This document shows positions 7,420-63,480 of a stretch of 64,000 bases of DNA, piece after piece. Source of the stretch: Candidatus Latescibacterota bacterium (GTDB taxonomy: Bacteria; Latescibacterota; UBA2968). A program made the translations under genes and the position numbers. The stretch is from the NCBI GenBank assembly GCA_965214925.1, contig OZ244028.1:3863009-3927008 (forward strand). Direction: 5' to 3'. Numbering within the stretch: the first letter of the stretch is position 1; each line of letters begins with the position of its first letter. The notes beneath the pieces were generated by a model. It had not been told where the DNA came from. It did no database searches and saw only the letters and a program-made list of their open reading frames with translations.

Positions 7420-7450
7420 GATGTATGTGCATCGACATAAGGAAAAATTT

Positions 7451-8893: not shown

Positions 8894-8894
8894 T

Positions 8895-15379: not shown

Positions 15380-16300
15380 TCATCCCTGAAAAGAGAGGGC
15401 GAATTGCTCCTGAAAGGCGGGGGACAGACTGGCTTTTTCATTCTCTGCGACACAATCGGGTGACATCACCAGTGCTTCTTCCATCGCGTTGCGGAGCGAT
15501 TCTTGGGCACCGACGTGATAGAAATGCGCGGTTGTCGCTGTGGGATAATTAGAGAAATGCTTTGTCAGGTGTTCATTTGTGCGATATTTGTTTTGCTTCC
15601 AAGTGGAGTAAGCAAAACGCGCTGTTAAGTTTTTGACTTCTCGCGCCAACCCGTCGGCATCCTCGCCGCGCCACGAGTTGTAATAATCCGTATGTCTGTC
15701 GTTGTACGGCGGGTCGAGATAGACGAAATCTGAATCTTCAATTTGGCTTAGCGTCTCGCGCCAATCCTGAACAATGAAGTGCCAATCCTTCCCCTTGATT
15801 CTCTCCACTGCCCAAGCGACTTGATTGCATATTTTGGTGATATAAGCACGCGCAAATCTTTCGGGCTTCCTACAGAACGGAACATTGAATTTGCCCTGTG
15901 CGTTGAATCGCATCATGCCGTTAAAACACGCCCGGTTCAACAAGAGAAAGTCAAAGGGTGAATGCTGTGCATTAAAACGCTCGCGCACTTTATAGTAGTG
16001 CGCTTGGCCTCTTTCACTGAGCGCACGGCCTTCTCGCTGCAAGAAGCAGCGCAAATCATAGGGATTCATGTCGCCGGTTTGTATCGCGCGGTAAAAGCGG
16101 ATGATGTGTTCATTCGCATCTGCGAGCAAGGCGCGCTCTGGATTGACATTGAGAACCACAACGCCCGAGCCCAAGAAGGGTTCAACCCATCGCCCGCGTC
16201 CATCCCATTTCACATTGTGCCTAATAAATGGCACGAGCTTTGTTTTAATGCCCTGAATTTTGAGGGGTGGTGCCTTTACATGGTTTGCATTCTTATTCAT
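15380..16300 (-). CDS. Dam-family (D12-class) N6-adenine DNA methyltransferase, solitary
   Basis: PLKIQGIKTKLVPFI is KWAGGK-like, EPFLGSGVV is motif I, and FVYLDPPYN is motif IV DPPY. I place the start at internal Met (MNKNANHV...). The track's TTG-initiated N-terminal extension is Arg/Pro-rich and unlikely to be coding. No cognate nuclease is adjacent. Confidence 0.75.
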   Translation of the reverse strand: MNKNANHVKAPPLKIQGIKTKLVPFIRHNVKWDGRGRWVEPFLGSGVVVLNVNPERALLADANEHIIRFYRAIQTGDMNPYDLRCFLQREGRALSERGQAHYYKVRERFNAQHSPFDFLLLNRACFNGMMRFNAQGKFNVPFCRKPERFARAYITKICNQVAWAVERIKGKDWHFIVQDWRETLSQIEDSDFVYLDPPYNDRHTDYYNSWRGEDADGLAREVKNLTARFAYSTWKQNKYRTNEHLTKHFSNYPTATTAHFYHVGAQESLRNAMEEALVMSPDCVAENEKASLSPAFQEQFALSFQG

Positions 16301-16529
16301 CTTTATCCCCTGAGATTTTGAAAAAACTCGGCGAATTGCGTCACGCGGGAGGGTATGAAACCATCGCGCAAGGTTTGGAACACGCCATTGACCATCATCT
16401 TTTGGAGTTGCGCTGTCAAAGAGCAAAAAAATGAAAAAAAACTACAAGAAAAAGGGTTGACAGAGGATGAAATTCTCAAAGACTTTGAAATATTTCGCGA
16501 GCAATTGAGGCAAGGGGATGCAGCGACTT
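16283..16529 (+). pseudogene. Ribbon-helix-helix (CopG/VapB-like) antitoxin, apparently frameshifted in an A-run
   Basis: One frame gives SLSPEILKKLGELRHAGGYETIAQGLEHAIDHHLLEL, the RHH signature. The adjacent frame gives KLQEKGLTEDEILKDFEIFREQLRQGDAAT, and its stop overlaps the PIN gene start. The track shows no intact 60-aa ORF here. Confidence 0.35.
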
Positions 16530-36368: not shown

Positions 36369-37100
36369 TTACTTCTCAATCGCGTTTGTCCAGTAGGCTT
36401 CGAGTTTGTCCCGAGGTTCAAAGCCGAGTATTGTGCGTGCGCGCGCGTTTGGGAAGCGACAGTGCGGCAGATCTGTGGTGACAAAAAAAACTTCAAAGCG
36501 CGACGGGAGGGTTTGAAGATCTACTTCCAGCGCGCATTGAACGGCCTGTGCGGCATCTCGCGCCGAGACGCTGAGGGTGCTGTCATCGAGGTTCTGCGGG
36601 TCAGCAGTGGGTTCTCGAAAGCGCGAAAAGATGAGTGAGAGGACGTATAGCGGATGCTGTTCGCTGAAGAGTCGGCAGATTTCAAGGCCGAGTCCTTTGC
36701 TCATCGCATAGAGACCTGTGCCGGGTTGGGGCGGTATGTTTTCGGAAATGGTATGGTCGTAGTCGAGATAGGACGGGCCGACGAGTGAGAAGCGCGGGCC
36801 CGTGTTGATAAAGTGCTTCATGTTGAATGCAACCGCGGCGCGGAGTGCATGGTGCGTTCCCATTGTGTTCACACCGAAAGCGATTTTGCGATGCGAGCGT
36901 TGAACCGCGCAATTGATGATGGCGTCCATGCCTTCGGCAGCAGACATGACTTGCGCGAGGTCGGACACGTCGACTTGTCGCGTGTCGTGAGGGGAATCAA
37001 TGGGCATGAGGTCGGTAATGCGAAGTTGATGGCGGTCTTCAAGAGCTTTGACCAGATATGGGCCGAGAAACCCATTGCCACCGAGAAGGAGAACGTTCAT
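36369..37100 (-). CDS. NAD-dependent epimerase-like (atypical SDR) protein
   Basis: Start at MNVLLLGGNGFLGPYL (Rossmann), with a YAMSK catalytic dyad. The track's 447-aa ORF has an Arg/Pro-rich 5' extension that is unlikely to be coding. Confidence 0.7.
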   Translation of the reverse strand: MNVLLLGGNGFLGPYLVKALEDRHQLRITDLMPIDSPHDTRQVDVSDLAQVMSAAEGMDAIINCAVQRSHRKIAFGVNTMGTHHALRAAVAFNMKHFINTGPRFSLVGPSYLDYDHTISENIPPQPGTGLYAMSKGLGLEICRLFSEQHPLYVLSLIFSRFREPTADPQNLDDSTLSVSARDAAQAVQCALEVDLQTLPSRFEVFFVTTDLPHCRFPNARARTILGFEPRDKLEAYWTNAIEK

Positions 37101-37117
37101 GGCATAAATGTTAAACG

Positions 37118-37921
37118 CTAAATGACGCGCGGGCGTCGGGGTCGATAAGGGGGTTCGAGCAGGGCGCGTTGTGTGGGTGTAAATTCGTCGAGCACCGCTT
37201 CTACATCTGGCGGCAAATAGCGCGCGGAATAGGTCAGCGGGCCGGGGGAATATTTGTAGAGAATGGATCGGCGTTGGTGGTCGGCTATCCAGGGGAGCGT
37301 TCCATGTGCGAGTGCTTCGGTGAAGATGATCGCGGATCCAGCTTTTGCAGGGACCTGCTTTACAACCCCCATATCGCGATCTAAGAGTGCCACATCGCGG
37401 GGCGTTTTGTAATTGGATTTGTGGCTGCCTGGAATGCAGGCAAATCCGCCATCGCCGGGGTTGCAGTCGGTGAGCACCCACGAGACCACGGTGAGGCCAC
37501 AGCGCATGCGCCCGTTGTGAAATTGATAGAAGTGCGTCAGGTCGTCGGCAGTGCCACCGCCGTGCATGACATGGCCCTCGGCGCCTTTTTCCATGACGAT
37601 GCCGTAGAGGTGGTCGAGACGGCAGTCTTCGCGCAACAATTCTGTGAGGTAGGGCACGATGTTTGGATGGGCGAGCAAATCGCGGAAGGGTTGGCACCAG
37701 GGTTTGGGCCACGTGAGCATGCCGCCCAAATCCGTGCGCCCGTGTTTGCCTTTGAGTACTCTAGATTCGCCAGAGAGCGATTGCTCTTTGGGGCGAACGC
37801 GCATCTTGTCGGGGTTGTGGTCAATGGCTGTGTTGCACGCGGCAACTTCGTCGGGCGTGAGCGCGTTTTTAACGACGAGGTAGCCATTGAGGTCAAAGAA
37901 AAATTTTTCGTGTTCGTTCAT
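37118..37921 (-). CDS. Phytanoyl-CoA dioxygenase (PhyH) family Fe(II)/2OG oxygenase
   Basis: N-terminus FFFDLNGYLVVKNALTPDEV, typical of PhyH, with the H-x-D...H facial triad region. It forms an operon with the downstream epimerase. Confidence 0.8.
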   Translation of the reverse strand: MNEHEKFFFDLNGYLVVKNALTPDEVAACNTAIDHNPDKMRVRPKEQSLSGESRVLKGKHGRTDLGGMLTWPKPWCQPFRDLLAHPNIVPYLTELLREDCRLDHLYGIVMEKGAEGHVMHGGGTADDLTHFYQFHNGRMRCGLTVVSWVLTDCNPGDGGFACIPGSHKSNYKTPRDVALLDRDMGVVKQVPAKAGSAIIFTEALAHGTLPWIADHQRRSILYKYSPGPLTYSARYLPPDVEAVLDEFTPTQRALLEPPYRPRRPRVI

Positions 37922-38093
37922 GGGCGGGTTCCTATGGTGAAATTTCCAAGTCGCATTTTACACCGCTTAAATTCGCTCATTTTTTTTCATGAGTCAAATT
38001 AAACTTGTTGACTGAACAAATGTATAGTATATTGAGAAACACAATTTCGCGCAATAATACCGCCAATGATAAGGCGAGATTGGAGATTTAGCA

Positions 38094-39749
38094 ATGCCAA
38101 CTTTGGATTTCAAAGGCAAGCAACACATCTACGCCCATCACATGGCCGTCCCTTACCGGCCGCTGGTTCCTGACCCCGACCGCTCGCTGAACTCGGCCGG
38201 TGCCGATGACAACCTCATCATCCACGGCGACAACCTGCACGCCCTGAAGGCATTGCTCCCCCGCTACATCGGGCGCGTCAAGTGCATCTACATTGACCCG
38301 CCGTATAACACCGGCAACGAGGGCTGGATCTATAACGACAAGGTGAACAGTCCGTTGCTCAAAGAGTGGTTCAAGCACCAAAGTCCGGTTGACGGCGAGG
38401 ATTTAGAACGCCACGACAAATGGTGCTGCATGATGTGGCCCCGGTTGCAGTTGCTCAAGGAATTGCTCTCAGATGATGGCGTTATCTTCATCTCCATCGA
38501 CGACAACGAGCAACACCACCTGCGGATGCTGATGGATGAGGTTTTTGGAGAGGGGAATTTTCTCGCGGATATCATCTGGCAACATCGTTACGGCAGAAGT
38601 AACAACGCCAAATTGTTCTCAAATCAGCGTGAACACATAATCGCGTACAGAAAGTCCTTCAGTCTCTCTCACATTCGAGTGAAGCGCGACGAAAAACTGA
38701 ACTTGACTTATCAAAACCCCGATAATGATCCGCGCGGCAGTTGGATATCGAGTTCATACGTCAATCCCGCGACCAAAGAGCAACGGCCAAATTTGGTCTA
38801 TTCAGTAGTGAATCCACGTACAGACGCAATAATCGATCATCCGACTCACGCATGGAAATATGAGTATGCTACTTACGAGGAGCACGTTAAAGACAACAGG
38901 CTTTGGTGGGGCATAAACGGGAATCTACGATACCCTCGCCTCAAAAACTTCCTCAGTGAATCCGAGGCGAAAGGCATCGTTCCTATTGACCTTATGTTAG
39001 CGGATGTTGCTGGCACTACTGATGAAGGCACTCGTCAGTTACAGGCAATTTTTCAAAGCAACACCGTTGATTTCAATAATCCGAAACCCACAAAGCTGAT
39101 CCAAAACTTGATAGCGGTTGCCGAAGGGACATCCGACAAAGATGCCATCGTCCTCGACTCCTTCGCCGGTTCCGGCACCACCGGCCACGCTGTCCTCGCG
39201 CTGAACAAAGCGGATGGCGGCAATCGCAAGTTTATCCTCGTGGAGTGCGAGGGCTATGCGGATACCATTACCGCCGAGCGCGTGCGCCGCGTCATCAACG
39301 GCGTTCCAAACGCCCGCGACAAGTCGCTGCGCGAAGGCCTGGGCGGTTCGTTCACCTATTGCACGCTGGGCGACGCCATTGACACGGAAGGGATGCTAAC
39401 AGGCAAAGCACTTCCGGATTATCCGTCGCTGGCGGCGTACTTGCTGCATATCTCGGCGGGCATTTCCGCAGGTCACGCCGCGCTACAGTCGCAAAACAAA
39501 GATGGCCTGTTTTACAGCACGGACACGACCAACTACTACCTGCTGTACGAACCGAGCGTTGATTACTTGGGCAGCAGCGAAGCGATGCTGAACCAGGATC
39601 GGGCGCGGCGCATGAGTGCTGCAAGCCAACAGGAAGGCAAAAATGCCATTGTGTTTGGGCCGGGCAAGTACATCGGACAGCGCGACCTGAGCACGCTGGG
39701 CATCACTTTTTGTCAACTGCCCTACGAAATCCACAAAGCCGGGCAGTGA
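38094..39749 (+). CDS. mod: Type III restriction-modification system methyltransferase (Mod)
   Basis: Beta-class order: motif IV IYIDPPYNTGNEGW precedes motif I VLDSFAGSGTTGHAV. The central approx. 550 nt (TRD) is AT-rich. RBS GGAGA is present. Confidence 0.85.
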   Translation: MPTLDFKGKQHIYAHHMAVPYRPLVPDPDRSLNSAGADDNLIIHGDNLHALKALLPRYIGRVKCIYIDPPYNTGNEGWIYNDKVNSPLLKEWFKHQSPVDGEDLERHDKWCCMMWPRLQLLKELLSDDGVIFISIDDNEQHHLRMLMDEVFGEGNFLADIIWQHRYGRSNNAKLFSNQREHIIAYRKSFSLSHIRVKRDEKLNLTYQNPDNDPRGSWISSSYVNPATKEQRPNLVYSVVNPRTDAIIDHPTHAWKYEYATYEEHVKDNRLWWGINGNLRYPRLKNFLSESEAKGIVPIDLMLADVAGTTDEGTRQLQAIFQSNTVDFNNPKPTKLIQNLIAVAEGTSDKDAIVLDSFAGSGTTGHAVLALNKADGGNRKFILVECEGYADTITAERVRRVINGVPNARDKSLREGLGGSFTYCTLGDAIDTEGMLTGKALPDYPSLAAYLLHISAGISAGHAALQSQNKDGLFYSTDTTNYYLLYEPSVDYLGSSEAMLNQDRARRMSAASQQEGKNAIVFGPGKYIGQRDLSTLGITFCQLPYEIHKAGQ

Positions 39750-39760
39750 GGAGTTGAGCA

Positions 39761-42295
39761 ATGGAGATGAAAGAATATCAGGCTGCCGCGCTCGATGCCT
39801 TCACCCGCTGGCACGATGCGCTGGATAAGGCGCGAGTGCAGTCGGAAACCGTTATGACCACGCTGAAAGAGGTCGGGGCGGACATTCCCGATGACATCCG
39901 CAACTATCCCAAAGCCGCTTGGCAACAGTTGGCTCAATCGGGCGGCGTGGCCGAGAGCGCGGGCGACTATGTGAGCCGCACCGATGACGCGGGCCGTCCG
40001 ATCCCGCATGTCTGCTTCAAAGTGCCCACCGGCGGGGGCAAGACCCTGCTCGCGGCCGCTGCGCTGGGGCGGCTGCATCGACAGACCGGACTCACGCTGT
40101 GGGTAACGCCGACCCGCGCCATCTACGAACAGACGGAACGCGCGCTCAGAAATCGGGAGCATCCCTACCGGCAACTGCTGGAAATAGCCAGCGGCGGGCG
40201 GGTCAAGTTGCTGGAAAAGGACGACCTCTTCACGCGGTCAGATGTCGCCAACTACATGTGCGTGATGCTGCTGATGCTGCCCGCGGCCAACCGTCAAAGG
40301 GGACGGGACTTTCTGCGGATGTTCCGGGATTCCGGGCGTTATCCCACGCTTTTCCCCGATAGCGACGACGTCTTTGGCGACGCTCGCCTGTTGCATACCT
40401 ACCCCGATTTGGAACGCACGTCGGCCGATGGCCCGGTCAAGCACAGCCTGTTCAATGTATTCAAAATGCTGCGTCCCGTCGTGGTGCTCGACGAAGCGCA
40501 CAAAGCTTATGGGATCAAGCGGAAAGGGGCAAACGAAGAGTTCGTGCGCTCTGTCAACCGCCTTGACCCCCGCATGGTGATTGAGTTGTCCGCCACGCCC
40601 AACCGAGGTATCAGCAATCTTTTGGTTGACATCACCGGTAGAGAACTCAAAAACGAGGAGATGATCAAACTGCCCGTGCAGGTCACGTCCTTCACCAACG
40701 CGGATTGGTACAACACATTGGCACAGGCGCATGACGAATTGGAGCGACTCGCTGCCGAGGGACAATCACTCCAGCAGAGCGAGGGACGCTACATTCGTCC
40801 CATCGCGGTCGTCCGCGTGGAGCGCACCGGCAAAGACCAGCGCGATGGCGAGCGCGTCCACGCCGAAGACGTGCGGGAGTATCTGGTTCACAACTTGGGC
40901 GTTCCCGATAATGCCGTGGCGGTCAAATCATCTGAACTGGACGAGTTGGCGGGCGTGGATCTGCTGTCGGAGTTTTCGCCCGTGCGCTGGATCATCACCA
41001 AGTCGGCACTGATGGAGGGTTGGGACTGTCCCTTTGCTTATGTATTGGTGATGCTGGACAATACGCAGGCGCAGCGCGCCATCACGCAGTTGGTCGGGCG
41101 CGTGATGCGCCAGCCGCACGCGCGGCGCACTGAGCGAGAAGCACTCGACCAATGCCAAGTCTATTGCTACAATACCGATGTTGGCAAAGCCGTGGCGCAA
41201 GTCAAACAGGGGCTGGAAGAGGAAGGGTTGACCGGCTTGGACGACGCGGTGACCAGCGGTGCATCCGGATTTCGGCGGGTCAGTGTGCAACGACGCGGGA
41301 AGTTTCGGGATAAGGACATATTTCTGCCGCTGGTTTTGCACAAAGATGGCGACGAGTGGGGCGAGTTGAATTACCAGTGCCACATTCTACCCAGCATCAA
41401 TTGGGATGCGATTGACGCCCCAGACCCGCAAAACAGTCTTCCCGACCGAGCCACGCGGCAGTCGGCAACCGTTGATGTGGGCGATGCGCTGCCCGTTTTT
41501 CACGCGGACCGGGAGCTATATATCGACAAAACAGTGAAAATAGCGTGGTTTGCCCGCCGTCTGTCCGATGTTGTTCCAAACCCGTGGCAGGCCACCCGAA
41601 TCGCGCAGCAGTTGATAGAGAAATTGCAGGCGGATGGCGACACCGACGATGAAATCTATGATCGTCGCTCGTATTTGGGGTTCGCGTTGAGGGAATATGT
41701 CACCGATGCGGTGGAAAAGCAGGCTGAACAGGTCTTTCGCAAAAAATTGAAGGTGGGTGAAATCCGTTTTAACTTGGAGGCTGGGCAACCGAGTTTTCGC
41801 ATGGTGGAAAACTACGAAATACCTGTGACAGACGACGCGGGGCTACTCGCGGGAAATGACGGTCACCCGGTACAACTCAGTCTGTTTGAGCCGATATACA
41901 CGCAACAATTCGATTCTACCTTGGAGCGCAATTTCGCCCGCTATCTCGACGAACAAAAGGCACTGAAATGGTGGCACCGGGTGGCTGTGCGCCAGCGAGG
42001 CGATTACTACCTGCGAGGCTGGAAACAAGAGCGCGTCTGGCCCGACTTCGTCGCCATGGGCGGCGAAACCGATGGCAAGCCGCGCGTGCTGATTTTCGAG
42101 ACAAAGGGCGAGCACCTGCGCGATAATCCGGATACCGATTACAAGTGTCGCGTGCTGGATACCCTACAAAATGCTTTCAACTGCGGAACGATGATCGTGC
42201 GGGATGGGCCAGCCAAAGGCAGTTTCCGGCTGGTGTTCAATGAGGCGGAGTTCCCGGCAGCATTGGCTGTTCTGAGCGACGCCAATAGCCCCTAA
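39761..42295 (+). CDS. res: Type III restriction endonuclease subunit (Res), SF2 helicase ATPase plus endonuclease
   Basis: Walker A KVPTGGGKT, DEAH box VVLDEAHK, and helicase motif VI QLVGRVMRQPH. It lies immediately downstream of mod. Confidence 0.85.
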   Translation: MEMKEYQAAALDAFTRWHDALDKARVQSETVMTTLKEVGADIPDDIRNYPKAAWQQLAQSGGVAESAGDYVSRTDDAGRPIPHVCFKVPTGGGKTLLAAAALGRLHRQTGLTLWVTPTRAIYEQTERALRNREHPYRQLLEIASGGRVKLLEKDDLFTRSDVANYMCVMLLMLPAANRQRGRDFLRMFRDSGRYPTLFPDSDDVFGDARLLHTYPDLERTSADGPVKHSLFNVFKMLRPVVVLDEAHKAYGIKRKGANEEFVRSVNRLDPRMVIELSATPNRGISNLLVDITGRELKNEEMIKLPVQVTSFTNADWYNTLAQAHDELERLAAEGQSLQQSEGRYIRPIAVVRVERTGKDQRDGERVHAEDVREYLVHNLGVPDNAVAVKSSELDELAGVDLLSEFSPVRWIITKSALMEGWDCPFAYVLVMLDNTQAQRAITQLVGRVMRQPHARRTEREALDQCQVYCYNTDVGKAVAQVKQGLEEEGLTGLDDAVTSGASGFRRVSVQRRGKFRDKDIFLPLVLHKDGDEWGELNYQCHILPSINWDAIDAPDPQNSLPDRATRQSATVDVGDALPVFHADRELYIDKTVKIAWFARRLSDVVPNPWQATRIAQQLIEKLQADGDTDDEIYDRRSYLGFALREYVTDAVEKQAEQVFRKKLKVGEIRFNLEAGQPSFRMVENYEIPVTDDAGLLAGNDGHPVQLSLFEPIYTQQFDSTLERNFARYLDEQKALKWWHRVAVRQRGDYYLRGWKQERVWPDFVAMGGETDGKPRVLIFETKGEHLRDNPDTDYKCRVLDTLQNAFNCGTMIVRDGPAKGSFRLVFNEAEFPAALAVLSDANSP

Positions 42296-42345
42296 ACCTC
42301 GCCGCCGTTAGCTGAGTGAGAAGGCGAATTGCAAATGGAGTGCGG

Positions 42346-42786
42346 ATGATGAATGACGATAAAGCAAATGTCAAGCGAGCCGTTCCATTTTTTGCGGTGT
42401 CAAATATCGAAGCCTCTGTTCGCTTCTACATGGATGGTCTCGGTTTTGCGATGAGCAATAAATGGGTCAAGGATGGCGCGCTGCGCTGGTGCATGCTCCA
42501 ACGCGGAGACGCCGCGCTGATGTTGCAACAATTCAATACAGAAGGCCCCAATGCTTATGTGCCCGAAGGAAAAGTGGGAGAAGGCGTCTCGATTGTGTTT
42601 TTTTGCGAAGATGCCCTGGCGATTTATCGCGAGGTCGCATCTCGGCGCATTGAGGCGTCAAAACCCTTTGTCGGGAACGGGATGTGGGTCACGTCTCTAA
42701 GCGATCCGGATGGATTTCGCATCTACTTTGAGAGCGAGACAGACGTGCCGGAAGGCACCGAGTTTTCAGAGGATCTCAGTCCATGA
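42346..42786 (+). CDS. VOC-family (glyoxalase/bleomycin-resistance fold) protein
   Basis: FFAVSNIEASVRFYMDGLGF and a second beta-alpha-beta-beta-beta module. Start at MMNDDK. Confidence 0.7.
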   Translation: MMNDDKANVKRAVPFFAVSNIEASVRFYMDGLGFAMSNKWVKDGALRWCMLQRGDAALMLQQFNTEGPNAYVPEGKVGEGVSIVFFCEDALAIYREVASRRIEASKPFVGNGMWVTSLSDPDGFRIYFESETDVPEGTEFSEDLSP

Positions 42787-55396: not shown

Positions 55397-56272
55397 TCAT
55401 CTCCTCCTTTTAAGCCGCGTCTGTGCCTTTTGCAGTAAATCTCTTGGATCTATTTTGGAGTGTGTTTCAATCATCTTTGACCTTGTATTTTGTGAGGAGC
55501 GTTTCTCTCGTTTGTCGGTACTGTCCAATTGTGACAATGAAGCATCTTTCAATAAAAGGTCCAAAACGCGATGTGCTTGTTTGCGTTTCAACAACCCTCT
55601 ACTTACGACTATTTGTGCATCAATGCCCAAAAGACAATCCAAACAGGCAGTCTCACAATGGTTATGATGTTCCTGGTTGACATAAAGAACGCGCAACGCT
55701 TCTTCAAGCCCTAAACGACCTAGCCCTAACAATTCTCGAACATGACCAGCACCACCGGCGACATTGTCATAAAGTACAACACCCCATCCAGAGCCATTCT
55801 TGCCAGTCGGTATAGTCATCACGCCAAGTTCACGTGTATCCAGTTCAAGCACCTGAACTCCTGCTCTTTGCAATGCATATCCCAACGTTGTAATCAAAGC
55901 AAGGTCCCGTGCCTGAGCATCTAGACATCCCACAAAATCAACCATCAATACATCCGTAATTTCACGAGCCGCTAACACTTGCCTTCGGAGAATATGGGAT
56001 TCTCCATCATGCCAGCAACGACTCCAAGGGTTTGAAGAATGTAAAGGCGCATGGTTGACAAAATTAGGGGGAAGGTTCTGAATGCCATTGCCGTAACCCG
56101 TTTCACTTTCGGCAAAACCACACTTGAGACAAATAGCAAATCCTCGGTGGTTTTCGCCTTTATTGTACACCAATATTTCCCCATCTTCCTGATAGTAACA
56201 AGTCAACCCTCGTATATCTCCCAAATTTTCGACGGATATATTTGCCTCATTGCGACCCTGTAAAAACGCCAT
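55397..56272 (-). CDS. DUF1998-like zinc-ribbon protein (MrfA/DrmB-type C-terminal module) as a separate ORF
   Basis: Cys clusters CLKCGF and HHNHCETACLDC. It lies immediately downstream of the SF2 helicase. AT-rich. Confidence 0.45.
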   Translation of the reverse strand: MAFLQGRNEANISVENLGDIRGLTCYYQEDGEILVYNKGENHRGFAICLKCGFAESETGYGNGIQNLPPNFVNHAPLHSSNPWSRCWHDGESHILRRQVLAAREITDVLMVDFVGCLDAQARDLALITTLGYALQRAGVQVLELDTRELGVMTIPTGKNGSGWGVVLYDNVAGGAGHVRELLGLGRLGLEEALRVLYVNQEHHNHCETACLDCLLGIDAQIVVSRGLLKRKQAHRVLDLLLKDASLSQLDSTDKREKRSSQNTRSKMIETHSKIDPRDLLQKAQTRLKRRR

Positions 56273-56301
56273 GGTAGCTGTCTCAACAGAACCAATGCGT
56301 T

Positions 56302-58308
56302 CTACATCGGTGCTAAATTAATGGGAAAGCCATAATGAGGCAAAAATTGCCGATCAGCCAAACCCTCAATAACCGTAATTGCATGCAGAGCGCGCAATTG
56401 ATAATGAATTGCGTTAGCCTGTGCCTGCTGTTCTTCTCCAGTCGTACGCCAACTTGACAGTAAATTCTCATATTCTTCGCGCCAACTGTAAATGCCCTCG
56501 CGAAAACCATCAATGGAATGTTGTAAAAAGCTGTGCCAATCCTCTAATTCTTTCAACAACTGGGTTTCACGCAACAAGATCTCAATCGCATTACCCAGTA
56601 CCTCTTGTCCCTTGTCTCGTACCCAATTCATATAGCTTAAAAACTGTGTCTCCAGACCAGGTACCTCCGACTCGGGATTCCACCAAGGCAAATCAAGCTG
56701 ATATTCCGATGCAATAGGTGTTTGAATACTCGGTTTGGGATCTCCCTTCTTCCAGTATGCCACCTTTGGCACACCACAAAAATTGCCCATGTTGCCAAAT
56801 GCGTTCATTGCTCTCACATGTTGATCTTCAGGATAAATGGCCCGGAAAAATTCTCCGAGTAAAAAGGAGTGAAAATGACGCTTCACGACCCGATTGCGAT
56901 CGAGAAAGACCAAAGGTTTGCGTAAAGGACGCTCAAGGTAGTCGCCAACGCGATTGAAAACTTCTCGATCATAGGGCTGTGGTCGGGCATAGGTTATCAC
57001 AGCAGAAGAGCCATCAGACCGACGGCCGGCACGGCCGGCACGCTGTAAATAGTTGGCCTTTCCTGGCGGCACATTGCTCATTAAAACCGCGTTCAAACCG
57101 CCAATGTCAATGCCCAATTCCAGGGTCGTTGTCGCACTCAAAATATTGCGAATGCCATATTTGAAAAGGTCCTGTAATCGCCTATTTTCATGGGGCGATA
57201 ACTGTGCACTGTGTTCTTCTGCCCACAACCCCATCTGAAAAACTTCTGAATTGCGATACTCGCGCCGCTGCCGCCCGACGCGAGCATCTTTGTCCAGTTC
57301 GTCATCTGATATGGGTCTTAACGTGCGATTACAACCCAATTCGGGCGCACAGTTCAAGATGCTACGATACCAGAGGTGTCCCGTCTTTTCACAGCGATAG
57401 AGATCGGCGGGACGCCGCAGGCCCAAATGGTCAAAAACCAACTGAATGGCATCTTGTGTTGGTCCAGTGCCAGACTGTCTTATGTGGTACTGAAGCCAGG
57501 GCAATTCTCCATCCGAAGGTTTTTGCCCCGCAAGATGCGCCGCTTTCATCAACTGCCCAAATGCCATTCTGAGCATCCGACCAGCCAAGTCTTCTATGTC
57601 ATCTGAAACACCGCAGGCCCTCAATACCTGGGCGGCAAACCACAATCTGCGTTGCCGCAGAGATTGTCCCACGAAACTAACCAATCGGTTGCCAGATGTT
57701 TGTTCTGCACACCAATAGCCTATATAGGGCACATCAAACGAACCATTTTTCAAGGCACCTGAATCTTCAAGCGCAATAATCCCATTGGATCTAAGCGTGT
57801 CACACAATGCTTTAAGGAAATCTCCCCATACCCTAATCAGTTGATCTCGAACCTTCTCATAGGGCAAAATACCAAGTAATTGATTGGGCACTTTCAATTC
57901 ATCAATCCCGGGATAGGTCACTTCAATTAGACCGAGGTTTTCCAATGAATTGAAGCCGCGATAGGTACGGGCAAATTCGCATGCCAAATACGATCTAGCA
58001 TGCCGCTTCACTTGTTCATGATTCTTTTCCCATTCTTGTTGCCCCCAAATTTGTCCATCTTTTTCAGGCAGGTGATGAGAGGCTGACGCGCGGTCCAGCA
58101 ATTCTGATAGGAGGAGTTGACGAGCCAGTTTTTTACACCAGTCATCAATAGAACCACCTGCGGCTGCGCTTTGTGCCTGTAATCTCCAAATTTGCAGGGT
58201 GTTTTCGATTATGTGCCTTAACCCAGGATCAAGATCAGGATTTTCAAGTTGCTTTTCTTGTTCCCTGATCATTTTCTCAATGCCAGCAACCGTTTCTTCT
58301 CCTCCCAA
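56302..58308 (-). CDS. SF2 DEAH helicase, C-terminal part (RecA-like domain 2 plus large insertion and C-terminal domain)
   Basis: Helicase motif V/VI: ILSATTTLELGIDIGGL and YLQRAGRAGRR. The frame remains open upstream of the track's TTG start, which suggests a 1-nt frameshift relative to the upstream ORF. Confidence 0.65.
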   Translation of the reverse strand: MGGEETVAGIEKMIREQEKQLENPDLDPGLRHIIENTLQIWRLQAQSAAAGGSIDDWCKKLARQLLLSELLDRASASHHLPEKDGQIWGQQEWEKNHEQVKRHARSYLACEFARTYRGFNSLENLGLIEVTYPGIDELKVPNQLLGILPYEKVRDQLIRVWGDFLKALCDTLRSNGIIALEDSGALKNGSFDVPYIGYWCAEQTSGNRLVSFVGQSLRQRRLWFAAQVLRACGVSDDIEDLAGRMLRMAFGQLMKAAHLAGQKPSDGELPWLQYHIRQSGTGPTQDAIQLVFDHLGLRRPADLYRCEKTGHLWYRSILNCAPELGCNRTLRPISDDELDKDARVGRQRREYRNSEVFQMGLWAEEHSAQLSPHENRRLQDLFKYGIRNILSATTTLELGIDIGGLNAVLMSNVPPGKANYLQRAGRAGRRSDGSSAVITYARPQPYDREVFNRVGDYLERPLRKPLVFLDRNRVVKRHFHSFLLGEFFRAIYPEDQHVRAMNAFGNMGNFCGVPKVAYWKKGDPKPSIQTPIASEYQLDLPWWNPESEVPGLETQFLSYMNWVRDKGQEVLGNAIEILLRETQLLKELEDWHSFLQHSIDGFREGIYSWREEYENLLSSWRTTGEEQQAQANAIHYQLRALHAITVIEGLADRQFLPHYGFPINLAPM

Positions 58309-59606
58309 TCTTTTTCTAACACATGGATCGAAGGCGCGGCTCCCAATGTCTTATTGAGCAGACGGGCTGGCACCTCCAGTTCTTTTACCCGATCCACCAA
58401 ATCCGAATTGACCAAAACCGGCAATTGTTGTCGCAACTGGTGACACATATCTCTATCTTTAGCCAGTGTAGGCTGCATATCTTCATCATAGGTCATCAAA
58501 GGGCGGTCCAGCCAGTCCTGTTGAATCAAGTCGTCTGGCGTACTATCCCACTTTGGCGGCGCAGGAATGTCCAGATCAACACGGGTTGAGCGTCCCTCTA
58601 TAACCCGAACCTGATCAATTGATTTTGAAAAAAGCCTTGCGGCAAATCTCTTGAGATCATTTTGATTGCCCGACCCAAGCGTTGCAGAGGTCGCCATTTG
58701 TAGAATATCCGAAGAAGAAACCCCACAACGAAGGGCAAGACGCCGCAATAAGAGCGTGATTTCAGCAGCCAATGTTCCCGTGTATAAATGCGCTTCATCC
58801 AGAACCACGGCACGTAGCCCTGGCCCAAAGAATACGGAATCTTGTGGCCTACATAGCATGTATTCCAGCATGGAATAATTCGTCACAAGAATATCTGGAA
58901 CTTGGTCGAGATTAGGTGGACTTTGCTTTCCTCCTGTTTTTGGTTTTTCCTGCCCTCTGGCCTCTTGTCTGGTGCGGACGCGGCAGGCGTCCCAATCGGA
59001 TATGCCCTGACGGTCTGCCGTTCTTTTATTTTCTGGCGTTTCACTGGTAAAATGAAAAAGACGGACGTGTGTTTGGCCCTGAAGCCAACTATAGAGTCGA
59101 TTTACCTGATCATTGACCAGCGCATTCATAGGATATAAGATGATGCACTGCACACCTTCTTGTTTCGTCGGGGACGCGTAGAGCGCGTTTAGAATGGGTA
59201 ACAGAAACGCCTCTGTTTTACCTGCGCCAGTACCAGCAGTTATAACCACGGCTGGCTTTTTATCCTGTTTTTCCAAATCCTCAGCACAACATATGGCCTC
59301 ATATTGATGGGTATAGAGAGGCCGGTCAGGAGGTACAGCCCCAGTTCTATTCAATTGCTCGAGAAGCAGAGCGTCAAATCTTCCGGCATCAACCAACTTG
59401 CCCAGTGTCCAGTCAGACTGCTCTGCTGGGAAATTTCCCTCAACCCACAGATCGCTCAATAACCCGCCATTTTGTGGCGTTGAAGACCATAACTCGCGAC
59501 AAATATCGACTAACTGCGGATCATTTACAAAGTTGTTGTCCACACAAAAATCAGTCAACCTTTGACGGATATTTTCAGACAATTGTAGCGCGTCAAGTTG
59601 TGACAT
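58269..59606 (-). CDS. SF2 DEAH helicase, N-terminal part (RecA-like domain 1)
   Basis: Walker A ITAGTGAGKTEAF, motif II VVLDEAHLYTG, motif III MATSAT. It overlaps the next ORF by 40 nt. Confidence 0.7.
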   Translation of the reverse strand: MSQLDALQLSENIRQRLTDFCVDNNFVNDPQLVDICRELWSSTPQNGGLLSDLWVEGNFPAEQSDWTLGKLVDAGRFDALLLEQLNRTGAVPPDRPLYTHQYEAICCAEDLEKQDKKPAVVITAGTGAGKTEAFLLPILNALYASPTKQEGVQCIILYPMNALVNDQVNRLYSWLQGQTHVRLFHFTSETPENKRTADRQGISDWDACRVRTRQEARGQEKPKTGGKQSPPNLDQVPDILVTNYSMLEYMLCRPQDSVFFGPGLRAVVLDEAHLYTGTLAAEITLLLRRLALRCGVSSSDILQMATSATLGSGNQNDLKRFAARLFSKSIDQVRVIEGRSTRVDLDIPAPPKWDSTPDDLIQQDWLDRPLMTYDEDMQPTLAKDRDMCHQLRQQLPVLVNSDLVDRVKELEVPARLLNKTLGAAPSIHVLEKDWEEKKRLLALRK

Positions 59607-59615
59607 AAAATACTC

Positions 59616-61112
59616 CTAAAGATTGCGGATTACATCGCTAAGGATATTGACGCAAAGATAGCGATTAAAAGGCTGCACATTCATTGCTATTTCAAGGTTT
59701 TCTCGCTCAATTGCTGGCAGGGACCGCTTGTGTCCAGCTTTTACCAATTTCATACCATTTTTTGCTATATGTAAAATAAAAAAAGTGTTGACCATCATGC
59801 TTTGAGCGGCTTCATCAAGACGCTTTTTCTCCTCAATTCTGATGTCTCGGTCAGAAGTTCGTGATGGCAAATGCAGAAAGCGGCACTTAGCACTTTGCAA
59901 ATGATCAATCCATTCGGATTCCTCGAAATTTCTGTAACCCGAAACCAACAATGCCTGCAACATACGCCCCATAAAAATGGGGTTTATTATGTGTCCCAGA
60001 CGATGGAGTGCCTCTCCTAAGTTGACCAGAGGTTGATCGTGCATCATCAAATCAACAATGGCCGATGCGTGTTCAGGTGCAACATGAACCTGAGAGAATA
60101 ATCCTCCAACATTGGCAAACCATATTTCATCCTTGTCAAAGCACAGTCCTTCCGGAAGTCCTTGATTCTGTACCCAAGCGGAAAGCACAGCGACCAAGTT
60201 TGTTTCGATGAAGCGGATAACTTGCTCTTTCCATGTTGGCTTGAGGATGGGGAAATGTAACCATCGCATCATCGCTGCCACATTTTGGACGCGTTCAGTA
60301 TCCAGAAAATCCAAAATATCTATGAGATCTTCGCACCAACTTCCCATACGCTCTCCACGATACGCAATGCCGCAGGCAATCAAAGGGCTATTGACTTTCA
60401 CGAACCATTGCCGACCATTATACGCCCCGATTTCAAATTGAGACACAAGTCCATTGGGTGATACACCAATTAAGAAATGATCAGGACCTAGCTCTACATC
60501 TCTGTGCATGAAAATCTCAACAAGAGTTTCATCTATCAGCACCCGATCTATAATCCCACGGTCAATTACTTCTGTCGCTAGCGTCAACAGCTTTTCTTCT
60601 GGCAAACAGTTATAAGGTTTTTGGACTTTCAAAGGTGCGCCCAATCCCATCAATCCGCTGAGTGTTCTAGGTCGCTTCCATAACCTGCGTAAGAACCCAC
60701 TGCCTTCCATCAAAGCGAGACCTTTGAAACGCTCCCCTTGCCAATACTTTGGAACGAAAATTTGCACAGGATCGGATTCCAGTTCTTTAACTGTTATACC
60801 GCGTCCCATAAACATCGGCTCCCAATGAGCCTTTCGATCAATGACCGATCCCCTGAAGTCTAAATCAATTGGCAATCGAACCCGCTTTTTTTCTCCGTTG
60901 CGGTCCAAACGAAGCTCAATTTTGCTCCCTCGCCAGACAGCGAATGCGACCTCTGGTGTCAACTCAATCTTTTCAATTCGCCCCACCCCTGGTAGGGCTG
61001 TGACTGCGACGGGCCTTTTACAGAAAATGGCGTGCGAAATTTTGACTTTAGGAGGGATATTTTCGATAATCACATCAAATTTGTCTCCAAACTCCAATGT
61101 GGTATTTGGCAC
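59616..61112 (-). CDS. Hypothetical protein (498 aa), island component
   Basis: Long AT-rich ORF co-oriented with the helicase and tightly spaced. No recognisable motif. Confidence 0.55.
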   Translation of the reverse strand: MPNTTLEFGDKFDVIIENIPPKVKISHAIFCKRPVAVTALPGVGRIEKIELTPEVAFAVWRGSKIELRLDRNGEKKRVRLPIDLDFRGSVIDRKAHWEPMFMGRGITVKELESDPVQIFVPKYWQGERFKGLALMEGSGFLRRLWKRPRTLSGLMGLGAPLKVQKPYNCLPEEKLLTLATEVIDRGIIDRVLIDETLVEIFMHRDVELGPDHFLIGVSPNGLVSQFEIGAYNGRQWFVKVNSPLIACGIAYRGERMGSWCEDLIDILDFLDTERVQNVAAMMRWLHFPILKPTWKEQVIRFIETNLVAVLSAWVQNQGLPEGLCFDKDEIWFANVGGLFSQVHVAPEHASAIVDLMMHDQPLVNLGEALHRLGHIINPIFMGRMLQALLVSGYRNFEESEWIDHLQSAKCRFLHLPSRTSDRDIRIEEKKRLDEAAQSMMVNTFFILHIAKNGMKLVKAGHKRSLPAIERENLEIAMNVQPFNRYLCVNILSDVIRNL

Positions 61113-61161
61113 TGCCTTGATCTGAATTTTTTGTTCCCAATCGGAGAGACCAGATGTGGAT

Positions 61162-63480
61162 TTATCCGACTTTATAAAGAGGCGACCAAAAATCTTCTCC
61201 TTCCCAGGTAATTTTTAAGTCAGACGACCAACCTTTTTGCAATAAAATCAACCGCCACTTTCCTTCCCCAACAAGCCGCCAGGGATCAACAGGCGGTTCA
61301 ATATCGAGGTCTGCCAAAGTAATCAGTCCATATTGTGACTGCGTGTCCATCTGTCTTTCCCAAGCATTGATTTTGCGCCCTGATGGAAACTGAAAGACAC
61401 TGACAGCACAATCATCTTCTTCATTCCAGAGTTGGATTTCCTGCGTATAACATGTTCTGCCTCCCAAATCACATAGATGGATGACCTGCTGAGGGCTTTC
61501 AAGAGGTATATGGACTGTCTCCGGACCGCGATAGCCGCCATTGACATCTCTAAAAAGCGATCCCAAATGCCGTTCGCCTACAAAAAGATCGTAGTGATCG
61601 TCGATGAGGTCGATTAAATCAAGCCGTTGCAGAGTGCATTCAAAAAATGGCACGTCAACACCATCCCATTGAAGCCTAGGTTTCTCAATTAGCAAAATAT
61701 GTTGCTCATTATCCTCAATGTTAGGCTCGTCACCCCCATCTGCTGATCCTGTGGCAAGCTTGTTGTTAAGTTTCTCAGCCGACTTTGCAGCATCCAGCAC
61801 ATCCTTTGTTTTTTGAGGTAAAACCCAGGGATTGATATCGAGAATTTTAGCAGCCTGATCCCGCGATATGCGGTTGAAGCGAAAATCTCTCAACGTTTGG
61901 AATAGCTGATGGAAACTCTCACTTTTTAAGTGCGCTCCTAACAACAACTCGAACGCTCGAAGATTTTTATGTCCCGTCAACATCAGAGGGAGTTGTTTAA
62001 GATGGGATAAAGCAAAGCCATATTGTAATGTCATGGTGATGTAATAACTTTGCGTACCTTCCCGACCCAAAACATGCCGCAGATTAAATTTTCGACATGT
62101 AGTCTCTATCACATCTTTGAATCTTGGATTGATCCCCTGTTCACCCTGAAAAACAATTTTTCTGGCATCCTCATTTAATCGTCTGCGTACAAACGGCCAG
62201 AGCATGCTTGATACAGCTTCTCTGCGACCAATCTCCGCAGCAAAAAGAAGCAGTAAAAGACCGGTTCCCAAAGCAACTGGAGTGACATTTCCTTCCCCCC
62301 ATTCAAAGTATTGGTCATAATCATCTAGCAATGCGCGCAAAGTAGATGCGTCAATATGCTTTGCCCATAAAATCAACCATTGATACCCCTCTCGATCGAG
62401 ATGCAATTCGCATAAAGAGCGAGGCTTTGGCATAGCCTCGATGGCTTTAATAATTCGCAAGATGGCCTCACGCACTGCACTGGGATCTTTTGGATTCAAT
62501 CCACTAAAAATATTTTTGTAATGGTTTTCCTCATTTTCCATTTCTGCCAAAATCGCGTCATAATCTAAACTGCTATCCCACCGGGGGAGTGTTGTGTCTT
62601 CCAACTTGGATTCAGATGGGTTTTGTAAAATTTCCTCTTCTGCATATTTACGTAAGGCATAAACAGCACGATCTACTTTTATCACATGTGTGCCTTGCCG
62701 TGCTAAATTTTGAAGCACAGAATTGATTCTGCTGGTTGACAATCCGCCGGGAAAGTTTGGAAATAACTCCTGGGCCTTTTCTGCGATTACTTTAAAGTGG
62801 GCGGGGCATTTCAGAAAATTCAGCGTTCGAATGATGCAAGGTCTCAGGCCTTTAGGGGAGCGGTGGCTTTTCTCTGCATATAGAAATAGAATATTCCCTT
62901 CTGCTTTGCTAAGCCCGCCAGCACATGTGCTTGCAGCAATTGATAGATAGTTTTCTTTTTTTCTGTCGTATTCATTCTCCCAAAATTCCAATCCGGGAGG
63001 CCCTCCTAAGTTCTTTCCCCAATTTATCCACAGCCAGTCACTATCATAGACTTGAATTGGTTCTACCATTGCAATTGTTTTCAAAATCTGGCACAAGCCA
63101 CGACTTGTAATCCGTTTTTGAAAATAATCTTCCATCTTTTCTGCAATCATATCAGGATGCACAAGGCGCATGGATGGCAAATCAAAAAGGTTTTGTCCCA
63201 AAACATAACCAAATGTTTTCCGAAATGAAGGGCGCAAGAGCCGATCAACTGCTTTGTTAAGCCTTTGGCGTGCTCTTTCTCTTGTAACCCCCAACAACTG
63301 GCCCAATTCTTCAAGTTTATGTCCATCGAGCAACCTTCTCTCTAACAAAGTCCTTTCTTCGTCATCAAACTGAGATAACCAATAACCGTCATGGACGCGA
63401 TCAACAGGGATAGGTTTTGAATTTTGACATTGAGCACGCACTTGAAATCCATCCCAGGAAAGCACCACTTCAGCTTGCAA
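61162..63480 (-). CDS. Large hypothetical protein (772 aa) with N-terminal sigma-70 region-4-like HTH
   Basis: EERTLLERRLLDGHKLEELGQLLGVTRERARQRLNKAVDRL resembles sigma-70 r4 / LuxR-type HTH. The remainder is unassignable. Confidence 0.55.
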   Translation of the reverse strand: MQAEVVLSWDGFQVRAQCQNSKPIPVDRVHDGYWLSQFDDEERTLLERRLLDGHKLEELGQLLGVTRERARQRLNKAVDRLLRPSFRKTFGYVLGQNLFDLPSMRLVHPDMIAEKMEDYFQKRITSRGLCQILKTIAMVEPIQVYDSDWLWINWGKNLGGPPGLEFWENEYDRKKENYLSIAASTCAGGLSKAEGNILFLYAEKSHRSPKGLRPCIIRTLNFLKCPAHFKVIAEKAQELFPNFPGGLSTSRINSVLQNLARQGTHVIKVDRAVYALRKYAEEEILQNPSESKLEDTTLPRWDSSLDYDAILAEMENEENHYKNIFSGLNPKDPSAVREAILRIIKAIEAMPKPRSLCELHLDREGYQWLILWAKHIDASTLRALLDDYDQYFEWGEGNVTPVALGTGLLLLLFAAEIGRREAVSSMLWPFVRRRLNEDARKIVFQGEQGINPRFKDVIETTCRKFNLRHVLGREGTQSYYITMTLQYGFALSHLKQLPLMLTGHKNLRAFELLLGAHLKSESFHQLFQTLRDFRFNRISRDQAAKILDINPWVLPQKTKDVLDAAKSAEKLNNKLATGSADGGDEPNIEDNEQHILLIEKPRLQWDGVDVPFFECTLQRLDLIDLIDDHYDLFVGERHLGSLFRDVNGGYRGPETVHIPLESPQQVIHLCDLGGRTCYTQEIQLWNEEDDCAVSVFQFPSGRKINAWERQMDTQSQYGLITLADLDIEPPVDPWRLVGEGKWRLILLQKGWSSDLKITWEGEDFWSPLYKVG

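What the first reader, a model, noticed from the sequence alone, without database searches (positions are those of the whole stretch)
38570..39130. Compositionally foreign target-recognition region inside the Type III mod gene
The mod gene is GC-rich at its conserved N-terminus (DPPY) and C-terminus (FAGSGTT), but the central roughly 550 nt drops to about 45% GC. This mosaic pattern is what would be expected if a TRD cassette had been swapped in from elsewhere. That would imply the system's specificity was acquired or changed recently.
Basis: partly seen in the sequence, partly recalled or inferred. Interest (0 to 1): 0.6.

Follow-up and report, generated by a model that had tools for sequence, protein, structure and literature searches.

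The report
Swappable recognition cassette in mod gene
The low-GC stretch is the exchangeable DNA-recognition cassette of an intact Type III restriction-modification methylase gene; but almost every relative of the gene has the same GC dip, so the dip does not show that the cassette arrived recently.

Summary
Inside mod (38094-39749, +), GC falls to 0.46 and third-codon-position GC (GC3) to 0.51 over nt 38562-39134. The flanks have GC 0.55/0.60 and GC3 0.77/0.73. Amino-acid composition does not explain the dip (expected GC3 0.69, z = -6). It is the largest internal dip among the 16 long ORFs of the window.

The segment is aa 157-347, the target-recognition cassette. mod and res are full-length Type III genes.

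The cassette reading is supported:
- 86 homologues carrying unrelated cassettes (22 clusters) have flanks closer to this gene (up to 83% identity) than any homologue with the same cassette (at most 78%).
- Identity to the 20 nearest frames is 0.88-0.98, then 0.11-0.50 across aa 151-350, then 0.84-0.97.
- The closest cassettes (84-86%) sit in more distant frames.

"Recent" and "low GC means foreign" are not supported:
- 75 of 77 homologous mod genes show the same dip, whatever their cassette type or host GC.
- Cassette GC3 tracks host GC3 (r 0.80) at about -0.15.
- Synonymous sites are saturated against every relative found.

A low-GC recognition domain was already reported for Neisseria modA12. 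This is a new member of a known kind. The cause of the family-wide offset is unexplained.

The parts
38094..39749 (+). mod gene, Type III DNA methyltransferase (551 aa), beta-class motif order IV - TRD - X - I
   Evidence: ORF and translation. Pfam PF01555, E 3.6e-32. PADLOC MTase_III PDLC03644, full length, E 1.3e-156. PDB sequence hits to three Type III Mod subunits: 6k0w 2.7e-55, 4zcf EcoP15I 5.8e-42, 7dsu 3.2e-31. The same three are the top Foldseek hits.
38094..38561 (+). 5' frame of mod (aa 1-156): N-terminal domain and MTase motifs IV-VIII, with DPPY at nt 38295-38306. GC 0.55, GC3 0.77.
   Evidence: 88-90% amino-acid and 82-83% nucleotide identity to the nearest frames L084-L087, which carry other cassettes. 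Nucleotide similarity to other-cassette loci stops at 38548-38587, mostly at 38561.
38562..39134 (+). Target-recognition cassette (aa 157-347): the low-GC segment (GC 0.464, GC3 0.508). It also contains the conserved NPDNDPRG (nt 38715-38738) and motif X NPKPT (nt 39078-39092).
   Evidence: GC3 breakpoints at 38535/39143. Identity to the nearest frames collapses across aa 151-350. Junctions read in the alignment as ...FGEGNF|LADIIWQ and ...AEGTS|DKDAIVLDSFAGSGTT. By position it corresponds to the insertion between motifs VIII and X, which is the TRD in EcoP15I Mod (aa 263-384; PMC4490356).
39135..39749 (+). 3' frame of mod (aa 348-551): motif I FAGSGTT at nt 39162-39182, the rest of the MTase fold, and the C-terminal domain. 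GC 0.595, GC3 0.73.
   Evidence: Nucleotide similarity to other-cassette loci resumes at 39133-39153. Amino-acid identity to the nearest frames is 85-92% for aa 353-430. The tail (aa 431-551) is the least conserved part (53% among same-cassette homologues) yet has normal GC3.
39761..42295 (+). res gene, Type III restriction subunit (844 aa): SF2 helicase followed by a C-terminal nuclease motif
   Evidence: Pfam PF04851 ResIII. PADLOC REase_III PDLC03653, residues 1-825, E 6.9e-190. Motifs GGGKT aa 91, DEAH aa 244, SATP aa 277, QxxGRxxR aa 443, PD aa 761, ExK aa 780. It starts 11 nt after the mod stop. It is 77% identical to the Res of both same-cassette and other-cassette loci.
37922..38093 (.). 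AT-rich intergenic region upstream of mod, next to a divergently oriented PhyH-family gene; presumed promoter region
   Evidence: GC 0.365 for 37900-38099. The neighbouring ORF 37118-37921 (-) is PF05721. No promoter was demonstrated; the only consensus matches were on the minus strand.

Best explanation
The segment nt 38562-39134 encodes the target-recognition domain cassette (aa 157-347) of an apparently intact Type III restriction-modification system (mod 38094-39749, res 39761-42295).

By analogy with EcoP15I, a Mod dimer reads the DNA site with the TRD of one subunit and methylates an adenine with the other. Res, an SF2 ATPase with a PD-ExK nuclease, rides on this Mod dimer. The cassette therefore sets the specificity of both methylation and restriction.

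In this gene family the cassette is an exchangeable module. It is flanked by conserved 5' and 3' frame sequences, where recombination can replace it as a block. This gene is such a mosaic: its frame belongs to a group whose members carry many unrelated cassettes, while its cassette is closest to cassettes in more distant frames.

The exchange is old or undatable. The low GC3 is not a leftover of a foreign donor. It is a standing property of cassettes in this family: they follow the host's composition but settle about 0.15-0.25 lower in GC3.

Shown: the anatomy, the mosaicism, the family-wide dip, and saturation of synonymous sites. Inferred: the recombination mechanism, the lineage in which the swap happened, and the cause of the offset. 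My preferred guess for the offset is that cassettes behave as poorly recombining allele classes, in which GC-favouring forces (biased gene conversion or weak selection) work less well against the AT-biased mutation reported for bacteria generally.
For: Type III identity: Pfam, PADLOC full-length MTase_III and REase_III, PDB sequence and fold matches to Type III Mod subunits, Res motifs, and adjacency in the same orientation.

Cassette boundaries agree across four independent measures:
- GC3 change-points at 38535/39143.
- Loss and return of nucleotide similarity to other-cassette loci at about 38561 and 39133-39153.
- Identity profile to the 20 nearest frames.
- Alignment junctions.

Modularity:
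- 32 cassette clusters among 83 genomic loci and 26 among 234 proteins.
- Frames 73-81% identical carry cassettes only 23-32% identical (L002, L010, L036). Conversely, frames 39-40% identical carry cassettes 46-52% identical (L031, L039, L045).

Mosaic in this gene:
- 86 other-cassette proteins have closer flanks than the best same-cassette protein. The column bootstrap difference is 0.052, CI 0.026-0.080.
- Within the same-cassette set, aa 24-126 group with P0003/P0006/P0032 and aa 133-304 with P0007/P0002. Max chi-square is 43, against a maximum of 20 in 300 site permutations.

Not recent and not foreign:
- 75/77 homologues show the dip after correcting for amino-acid composition, mean -0.17.
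- Flank GC3 equals host GC3 (+0.03, slope 1.02), while cassette GC3 is host -0.15 in 63/66 loci, r 0.80.
- Within the query's own cassette type, cassette GC3 spans 0.29-0.76 following the host (rho 0.78) and is always lower than the flanks, 10/10.
- pS is 0.51-0.93 in all regions.
Against: - The direction of the swap is not resolved. This gene might keep an ancestral cassette while its nearest frame relatives replaced theirs; no rooted phylogeny was made.
- The two protein sets were each selected by similarity to the query, which biases the comparison of flank and cassette identity. The bootstrap addresses sampling of columns, not of taxa.
- The pairs and the groups were chosen after looking at the data. 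Only the permutation test corrects for that.
- In the block scan, the N-frame versus the rest scored higher (53) than the cassette block versus the rest (42.5). The 3' breakpoint within the same-cassette set is therefore weak.
- Activity and specificity of the enzyme are untested.
- The proposed cause of the standing AT offset is conjecture. No population data were available to test it.
Confidence: 0.78

Rival explanations
1. One reading: the cassette was imported recently from a lower-GC donor and has not yet adjusted to the host, so the system's specificity changed recently.
For: - The GC3 dip is real, sharp and confined to the cassette.
- Cassette exchange does happen in the family.
- The same argument was made for modA12 in Neisseria (PMC3311624).
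Against: - The dip is present in 75/77 homologues, including every cassette type examined, the nearest frames and AT-rich hosts.
- Cassette GC3 tracks host GC3.
- The closest cassettes (84-86%) sit in GC-rich hosts and have the same dip (L081, L083).
- Synonymous sites are saturated against all relatives.
- No frame closer than 83% and no cassette closer than 86% exists in 5.8 billion proteins.
- Nothing closer than 54% was found on plasmids or phages.
Confidence: 0.07
2. No swap occurred in this lineage. The gene descends intact from the ancestor it shares with the 106 same-cassette homologues (>=60% cassette identity). The mosaic appearance arises because the more closely related frames replaced their own cassettes.
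For: Divergence from the same-cassette group is similar in the cassette (75-86% identity) and in the catalytic frame (N 79%, C 82% on average). This is compatible with co-descent. No rooted tree was built.
Against: - Within the same-cassette group the N frame and the cassette of this gene have different nearest relatives, and informative sites are significantly clustered.
- Pairwise distances in the cassette correlate poorly with those in the other regions (0.24-0.47, against 0.53-0.70 among N, C and tail).
- The query's frame sits among at least 22 cassette clusters. Many independent replacements around an unchanged query would be needed.
Confidence: 0.15
3. The dip is a by-product of protein-level or translation-level constraints rather than of cassette history. 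Candidates are amino-acid composition, relaxed constraint in a variable region, or rare codons that slow translation while the domain folds.
For: - The cassette is richer in Asn, Ser, Ile, Tyr and Lys than the flanks.
- GC1 is slightly lower in cassettes family-wide (-0.06).
Against: - After correcting for composition the deficit remains: 0.48 observed against 0.69 expected, z = -6. At four-fold sites it is -0.21 family-wide.
- The least conserved part of the protein, the C-terminal tail, has the same GC3 as the catalytic flanks (difference 0.002, p 0.65).
- A rare-codon effect would raise GC3 in AT-rich hosts, yet cassettes are lower there too (18/20, p 8e-5).
Confidence: 0.05

Closest known systems
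modA allele family of Neisseria and Haemophilus influenzae (Gawthorne et al. 2012, PMC3311624)
   Same: - A Type III mod gene with conserved 5' and 3' regions around a variable central DNA-recognition domain.
- Alleles arise by block exchange of that domain.
- The domain's GC content is reported as lower than both flanks for modA12.
   Different: - Those genes switch on and off through simple-sequence repeats and act as phasevarions. No repeat tract is present here.
- There the alleles share more than 90% identical flanks within a species. Here the nearest frames are only about 83% identical, so no swap can be dated.
- That paper reads the low GC as evidence of horizontal acquisition. The family-wide analysis here argues against that inference.
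Movement of recognition domains between mod genes in Helicobacter pylori (Furuta et al. 2012, PMC3467074; seen in the search list, not read)
   Same: The same recognition domain is found in non-orthologous methyltransferase frames. Here cassettes 46-52% identical sit in frames only 39-40% identical.
   Different: That work concerns strains of a single species with high sequence identity. The evidence here spans phyla, and only diverged copies are available.
EcoP15I (Mod2Res1 structure 4zcf, PMC4490356)
   Same: - Beta-class Mod with the TRD inserted between motifs VIII and X.
- Res is an SF2 ATPase plus nuclease.
- Mod matches by sequence (E 5.8e-42) and by fold.
   Different: - Mod is shorter here (551 against 644 aa), as is Res (844 aa; the EcoP15I model covers Res residues 7-810 and lacks the nuclease domain).
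- The Res sequence gives no significant PDB match to EcoP15I Res.
- The exchangeable cassette (191 aa) is larger than the structural TRD of EcoP15I (122 aa). It includes adjoining strands and motif X.

Membership tests
Type III restriction-modification system | Mod is a beta-class amino-methyltransferase: motif IV (DPPY), then the TRD, then motif X and motif I (FxGxG) | tested here: met
   DPPY at aa 68, NPKPT (motif X) at aa 329, FAGSGTT at aa 357. PF01555. PADLOC MTase_III full length, E 1.3e-156. Top sequence and fold matches in the PDB are Type III Mod subunits.
Type III restriction-modification system | Res subunit with SF2 helicase motifs and a C-terminal PD-(D/E)xK nuclease | tested here: met
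   PF04851. PADLOC REase_III PDLC03653, residues 1-825 of 844, E 6.9e-190. Motifs I, II (DEAH), III and VI, plus PD...ExK at aa 761/780. Caveats: there is no significant sequence match to EcoP15I Res in the PDB, and NCBIfam PRK15483 matches only partially, below its cut-off.
Type III restriction-modification system | mod directly upstream of res on the same strand | tested here: met
   mod stops at 39749 and res starts at 39761. The same arrangement is seen in L081-L087.
Type III restriction-modification system | Hemi-methylation of a short asymmetric site; ATP-dependent cleavage needing two inversely oriented unmethylated sites | not testable with these tools
   Needs methylome sequencing and biochemistry.
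Mosaic mod alleles with an exchangeable recognition domain (modA-like) | Conserved 5' and 3' regions, with identity collapsing only in the central domain between alleles | tested here: met
   Identity to the 20 nearest frames is 0.88-0.98, then 0.11-0.50, then 0.84-0.97. For L084: N 0.90, cassette 0.35, C 0.92.
Mosaic mod alleles with an exchangeable recognition domain (modA-like) | Many different recognition domains on one frame, and the same domain on different frames | tested here: met
   22 cassette clusters among the 86 nearest frames. The query's cassette type occurs in frames only 39-40% identical.
Phasevarion (phase-variable mod) | Simple-sequence repeat tract in or before the mod reading frame | tested here: not met
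   Tandem Repeats Finder found no array in mod. The only array in 37500-42500 is two copies of a 9-mer inside res.
Recently acquired foreign DNA (unameliorated insert) | A near-identical donor, or a near-identical recipient frame lacking the insert | tested here: not met
   The best cassette is 86% and the best frame 83% identical at the amino-acid level. pS is 0.51-0.93. There are no near matches in the E. coli, plasmid or phage collections.
Recently acquired foreign DNA (unameliorated insert) | A compositional anomaly peculiar to this copy and unrelated to host composition | tested here: not met
   The dip is present in 75/77 homologues. Cassette GC3 correlates with host GC3, r 0.80, and does so within single cassette types as well.

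The most novel reading that the evidence does not exclude
The synonymous AT shift confined to recognition cassettes is an equilibrium state, not a fossil of transfer. Each cassette type behaves as a poorly recombining allele class. It can be replaced as a block through the conserved flanks, but it rarely pairs with a homologous partner. GC-favouring forces (biased gene conversion or weak selection on codons) are then less effective there, and AT-biased mutation pulls GC3 down in every host. If so, GC dips in the specificity domains of restriction-modification genes cannot be used as evidence or clocks of horizontal transfer. These cassettes would also offer a natural within-gene test of what maintains bacterial GC content.
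Probability: 0.3. Interest if true: 0.5.

Novelty: new member of a known kind. Interest (0 to 1): 0.3.

Why it matters
For this genome, the result locates the part of the Type III system that sets its specificity. It also shows that the system is probably functional and is not phase-variable.

More generally it is a caution. A sharp GC dip over a recognition domain is the normal state of this gene family. It does not by itself indicate recent acquisition, although it has been read that way in the literature for modA12.

The family-wide, host-tracking offset at synonymous sites is a small but clean evolutionary puzzle. Population data could resolve it.

Tried and rejected
- **Amino-acid composition as the cause of the dip:** rejected.
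- **Low conservation or relaxed constraint as the cause:** rejected. The more variable C-terminal tail has normal GC3.
- **Rare-codon pausing:** rejected. The shift goes towards AT in AT-rich hosts too.
- **GC elevated in the flanks rather than depressed in the cassette:** rejected. Flanks equal the host proxy (+0.03), while cassettes are -0.15.
- **First homologue comparison:** The list was ranked on full length and therefore held only same-cassette proteins. Searching again with the cassette deleted reversed that conclusion.
- **Near-identical DNA in E. coli genomes and plasmids:** none found.
- **The cassette as a protein query against plasmids and phages:** nothing above 54%.
- **Naming the organism:** failed. 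The exact protein is not in the contig index and its cluster carries no name or accession. Relatives come from Poribacteria, Latescibacteria and other marine or host-associated MAGs and from Tara metagenomes.
- **dS dating:** uninformative because of saturation.
- **AlphaFold model:** only moderate (pLDDT 67, with parts of the cassette below 50). It was used only for fold-level matches.
- **Promoter-like matches at the cassette edges (38546-38575, 39052-39080):** judged to be chance hits in AT-rich sequence.

Full report
**The observation**

The ORF 38094-39749 (+) encodes a 551-aa protein with DPPY at aa 68-71 and FAGSGTT at aa 357-363. A 200-nt sliding window shows GC of 0.52-0.60 at both ends of the gene and 0.455-0.475 between about 38500 and 39100.

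The contrast lies mainly at third codon positions: GC3 is 0.50 against 0.77 and 0.73. A two-breakpoint likelihood fit on the GC3 series puts the low segment at codons 148-350, nt 38535-39143. 2*deltaLL is 39.5, and the largest value in 300 permutations was 20.4.

Amino-acid composition does not explain the dip. Using the per-residue codon use of the flanks and of res, the cassette should have GC3 of 0.69; it has 0.48 (z = -6).

As raw GC the value is not unusual for this heterogeneous window, since 14% of 561-nt windows are as low. As a dip inside one gene it is exceptional. It is the largest 190-codon deficit among 16 long ORFs of the window (-0.25; next -0.16). Only 3% of 157 unrelated long ORFs in the homologue loci reach -0.26.

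**What the genes are**

- Mod matches PF01555 and the PADLOC Type III methyltransferase model over its full length (E 1.3e-156).
- Its best matches among solved structures, by sequence and by fold, are three Type III Mod subunits: 6k0w, EcoP15I 4zcf and Mbo45V 7dsu. The AlphaFold model is only moderate (pLDDT 67).
- The next ORF, 39761-42295 (+), starts 11 nt after the mod stop.
- That ORF matches PF04851 and the PADLOC Type III restriction enzyme model over residues 1-825 (E 6.9e-190).
- It carries helicase motifs I, II (DEAH), III and VI and a PD...ExK motif near the C-terminus.
- It has no significant sequence match to EcoP15I Res in the PDB.
- There is no simple-sequence repeat in mod, so it is not a phase-variable allele.

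[quoted passage not shown] The TRD of one Mod subunit reads the site while the other subunit methylates (PMC4490356). The low-GC segment occupies that position.

**Is it a swapped cassette?**

The first search, ranked on the full protein, returned 119 full-length homologues at 65-80% identity. Among these the central region was as conserved (75%) as the catalytic parts (79% and 82%), and the C-terminal tail was the variable part (53%). However, such a ranking can only return proteins that share the cassette.

Genomic loci gave the first contrary sign. L002, L004, L006, L010, L012 and L036 have 70-78% identical N frames and 71-86% identical C frames, but only 17-24% identity in the centre. Their nucleotide similarity to the window stops at 38548-38587 (mostly 38561) and resumes at 39133-39153.

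I then searched with the Mod protein from which aa 157-346 had been deleted. This gave the following.
- 86 proteins carrying other cassettes, in 22 clusters, have flanks more similar to the query (up to 0.83) than the best same-cassette protein (0.78). The bootstrap over columns gives a difference of 0.052, CI 0.026-0.080.
- Identity to the 20 nearest frames is 0.88-0.98 up to aa 150, 0.11-0.50 across aa 151-350, and 0.84-0.97 from aa 351.
- In the alignment the junctions read ...MDEVFGEGNF|LADIIWQ... and ...AEGTS|DKDAIVLDSFAGSGTT.... The cassette is therefore aa 157-347, nt 38562-39134 (GC 0.464, GC3 0.508).

The converse also holds. The query's cassette type occurs in frames only 39-40% identical while the cassette itself is 46-52% identical (L031, L039, L045).

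Within the same-cassette set, the query's aa 24-126 agree with P0003/P0006/P0032 and aa 133-304 agree with P0007/P0002. The clustering of informative sites exceeds every one of 300 site permutations (43 against at most 20). The pairs and groups were chosen post hoc. In the block scan the 5' breakpoint is the stronger one.

The gene is therefore a mosaic in a family where the cassette is exchanged as a block. This is the known pattern of Type III mod alleles (PMC3311624).

**Is the change recent, and does low GC mark foreign DNA?**

Neither is supported.
1. Nothing close exists. The best cassette is 86% and the best frame 83% identical in amino acids. The proportion of synonymous differences is 0.51-0.93 in every region and every pair, which is saturation. 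Plasmid and phage collections hold nothing above 54% for the cassette.
2. The dip is a family trait. In 75 of 77 homologous mod genes, cassette GC3 is below the expectation corrected for amino-acid composition, by 0.17 on average.
3. The four nearest frames, each with a different cassette, show the dip: 0.45-0.59 against 0.64-0.85 in their N and C frames.
4. AT-rich hosts also show it (18/20), as do four-fold degenerate sites (-0.21).
5. Flank GC3 equals that of neighbouring host genes (+0.03, slope 1.02, r 0.90). Cassette GC3 is 0.15 lower in 63 of 66 loci, yet still follows the host (slope 0.77, r 0.80).
6. Within the query's own cassette type, cassette GC3 ranges from 0.29 to 0.76 according to the host (rho 0.78) and is lower than the flanks in 10 of 10 loci. 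In the largest other type it is lower in 29 of 30.

A cassette whose synonymous sites are saturated and whose composition follows its host has adjusted to that host. It simply settles at a lower level.

**Why do cassettes settle lower?**

This is not resolved. The following explanations were excluded here.
- Amino-acid composition.
- Low conservation, because the tail serves as a control with a difference of 0.002.
- Rare-codon pausing, which predicts the wrong direction in AT-rich hosts.
- Elevated flanks.

Symmetric exchange among hosts would pull cassettes towards the family mean, not below AT-rich hosts. My inference, untested, is that cassettes are allele classes that seldom meet a homologous partner. 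GC-favouring conversion or weak selection would then act less on them than on the shared flanks, and AT-biased mutation would prevail.

**Verdict**

The cassette interpretation is correct. The inference of recency is not supported. The phenomenon, a mosaic Type III mod gene with a low-GC recognition domain, is already described.

Noticed in passing
window 7061-9869: A second restriction-modification pair lies in another low-GC patch (8-10 kb, GC 0.44-0.45). ORF 7061-8893 (+, 610 aa) has a partial N6_N4 methylase match, and it abuts 8895-9869 (-), a BsoBI-family restriction endonuclease (PF09194, E 9e-56).
   Followed up: partly
window 15380-16426 (-): A D12-class N6-adenine DNA methyltransferase (PF02086, E 1.4e-36) sits beside the 16-17 kb low-GC patch (GC 0.45). 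No partner endonuclease was looked for.
   Followed up: no
window 55397-63480 (-): A low-GC block (0.43-0.49) contains three consecutive ORFs that match successive parts of the Druantia helicase DruE. ORF 58269-59606 matches model positions 8-337, ORF 56302-58308 matches 1033-1293, and ORF 55397-56272 matches 1460-1705, out of 2055. This is either a split or decayed DruE or a multi-gene variant. Upstream are a 498-aa ORF with no family match and a 772-aa ORF with a sigma-70 region 4 helix-turn-helix.
   Followed up: partly
window 39384-39749 (Mod aa 431-551): The C-terminal tail is the least conserved part of Mod among same-cassette homologues (53%). Its divergence follows that of the N frame (rho 0.70) and not that of the cassette (0.24). 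In EcoP15I the C-terminal domain of Mod contacts Res, so the tail may co-evolve with Res.
   Followed up: partly
homologue loci L001-L083, cassette region: Family-wide, cassettes also differ from flanks at the other codon positions. GC1 is lower (-0.06, 70/75 loci) and GC2 is higher (+0.045, 64/75). Part of the contrast is therefore in the protein composition of recognition domains.
   Followed up: no
L084 6717-7112: In the nearest frame relative (a Tara metagenome scaffold), a 131-aa ORF with no family match lies between mod and res. The window has only an 11-nt gap at that place.
   Followed up: no
L040 6001-7639: In this Poribacteria chromosome, nucleotide similarity to the window's mod runs from 38208 to 39416. 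My automatic ORF extraction gave only 402 aa with an unrelated N-terminus. This may be a frameshifted mod pseudogene.
   Followed up: no
window 36369-37921 (-): Two long ORFs overlap by about 600 nt in different frames. One is 447 aa, with an epimerase domain only in its second half. The other is a 267-aa PhyH-family protein. The longer ORF probably starts well downstream of its first start codon.
   Followed up: no
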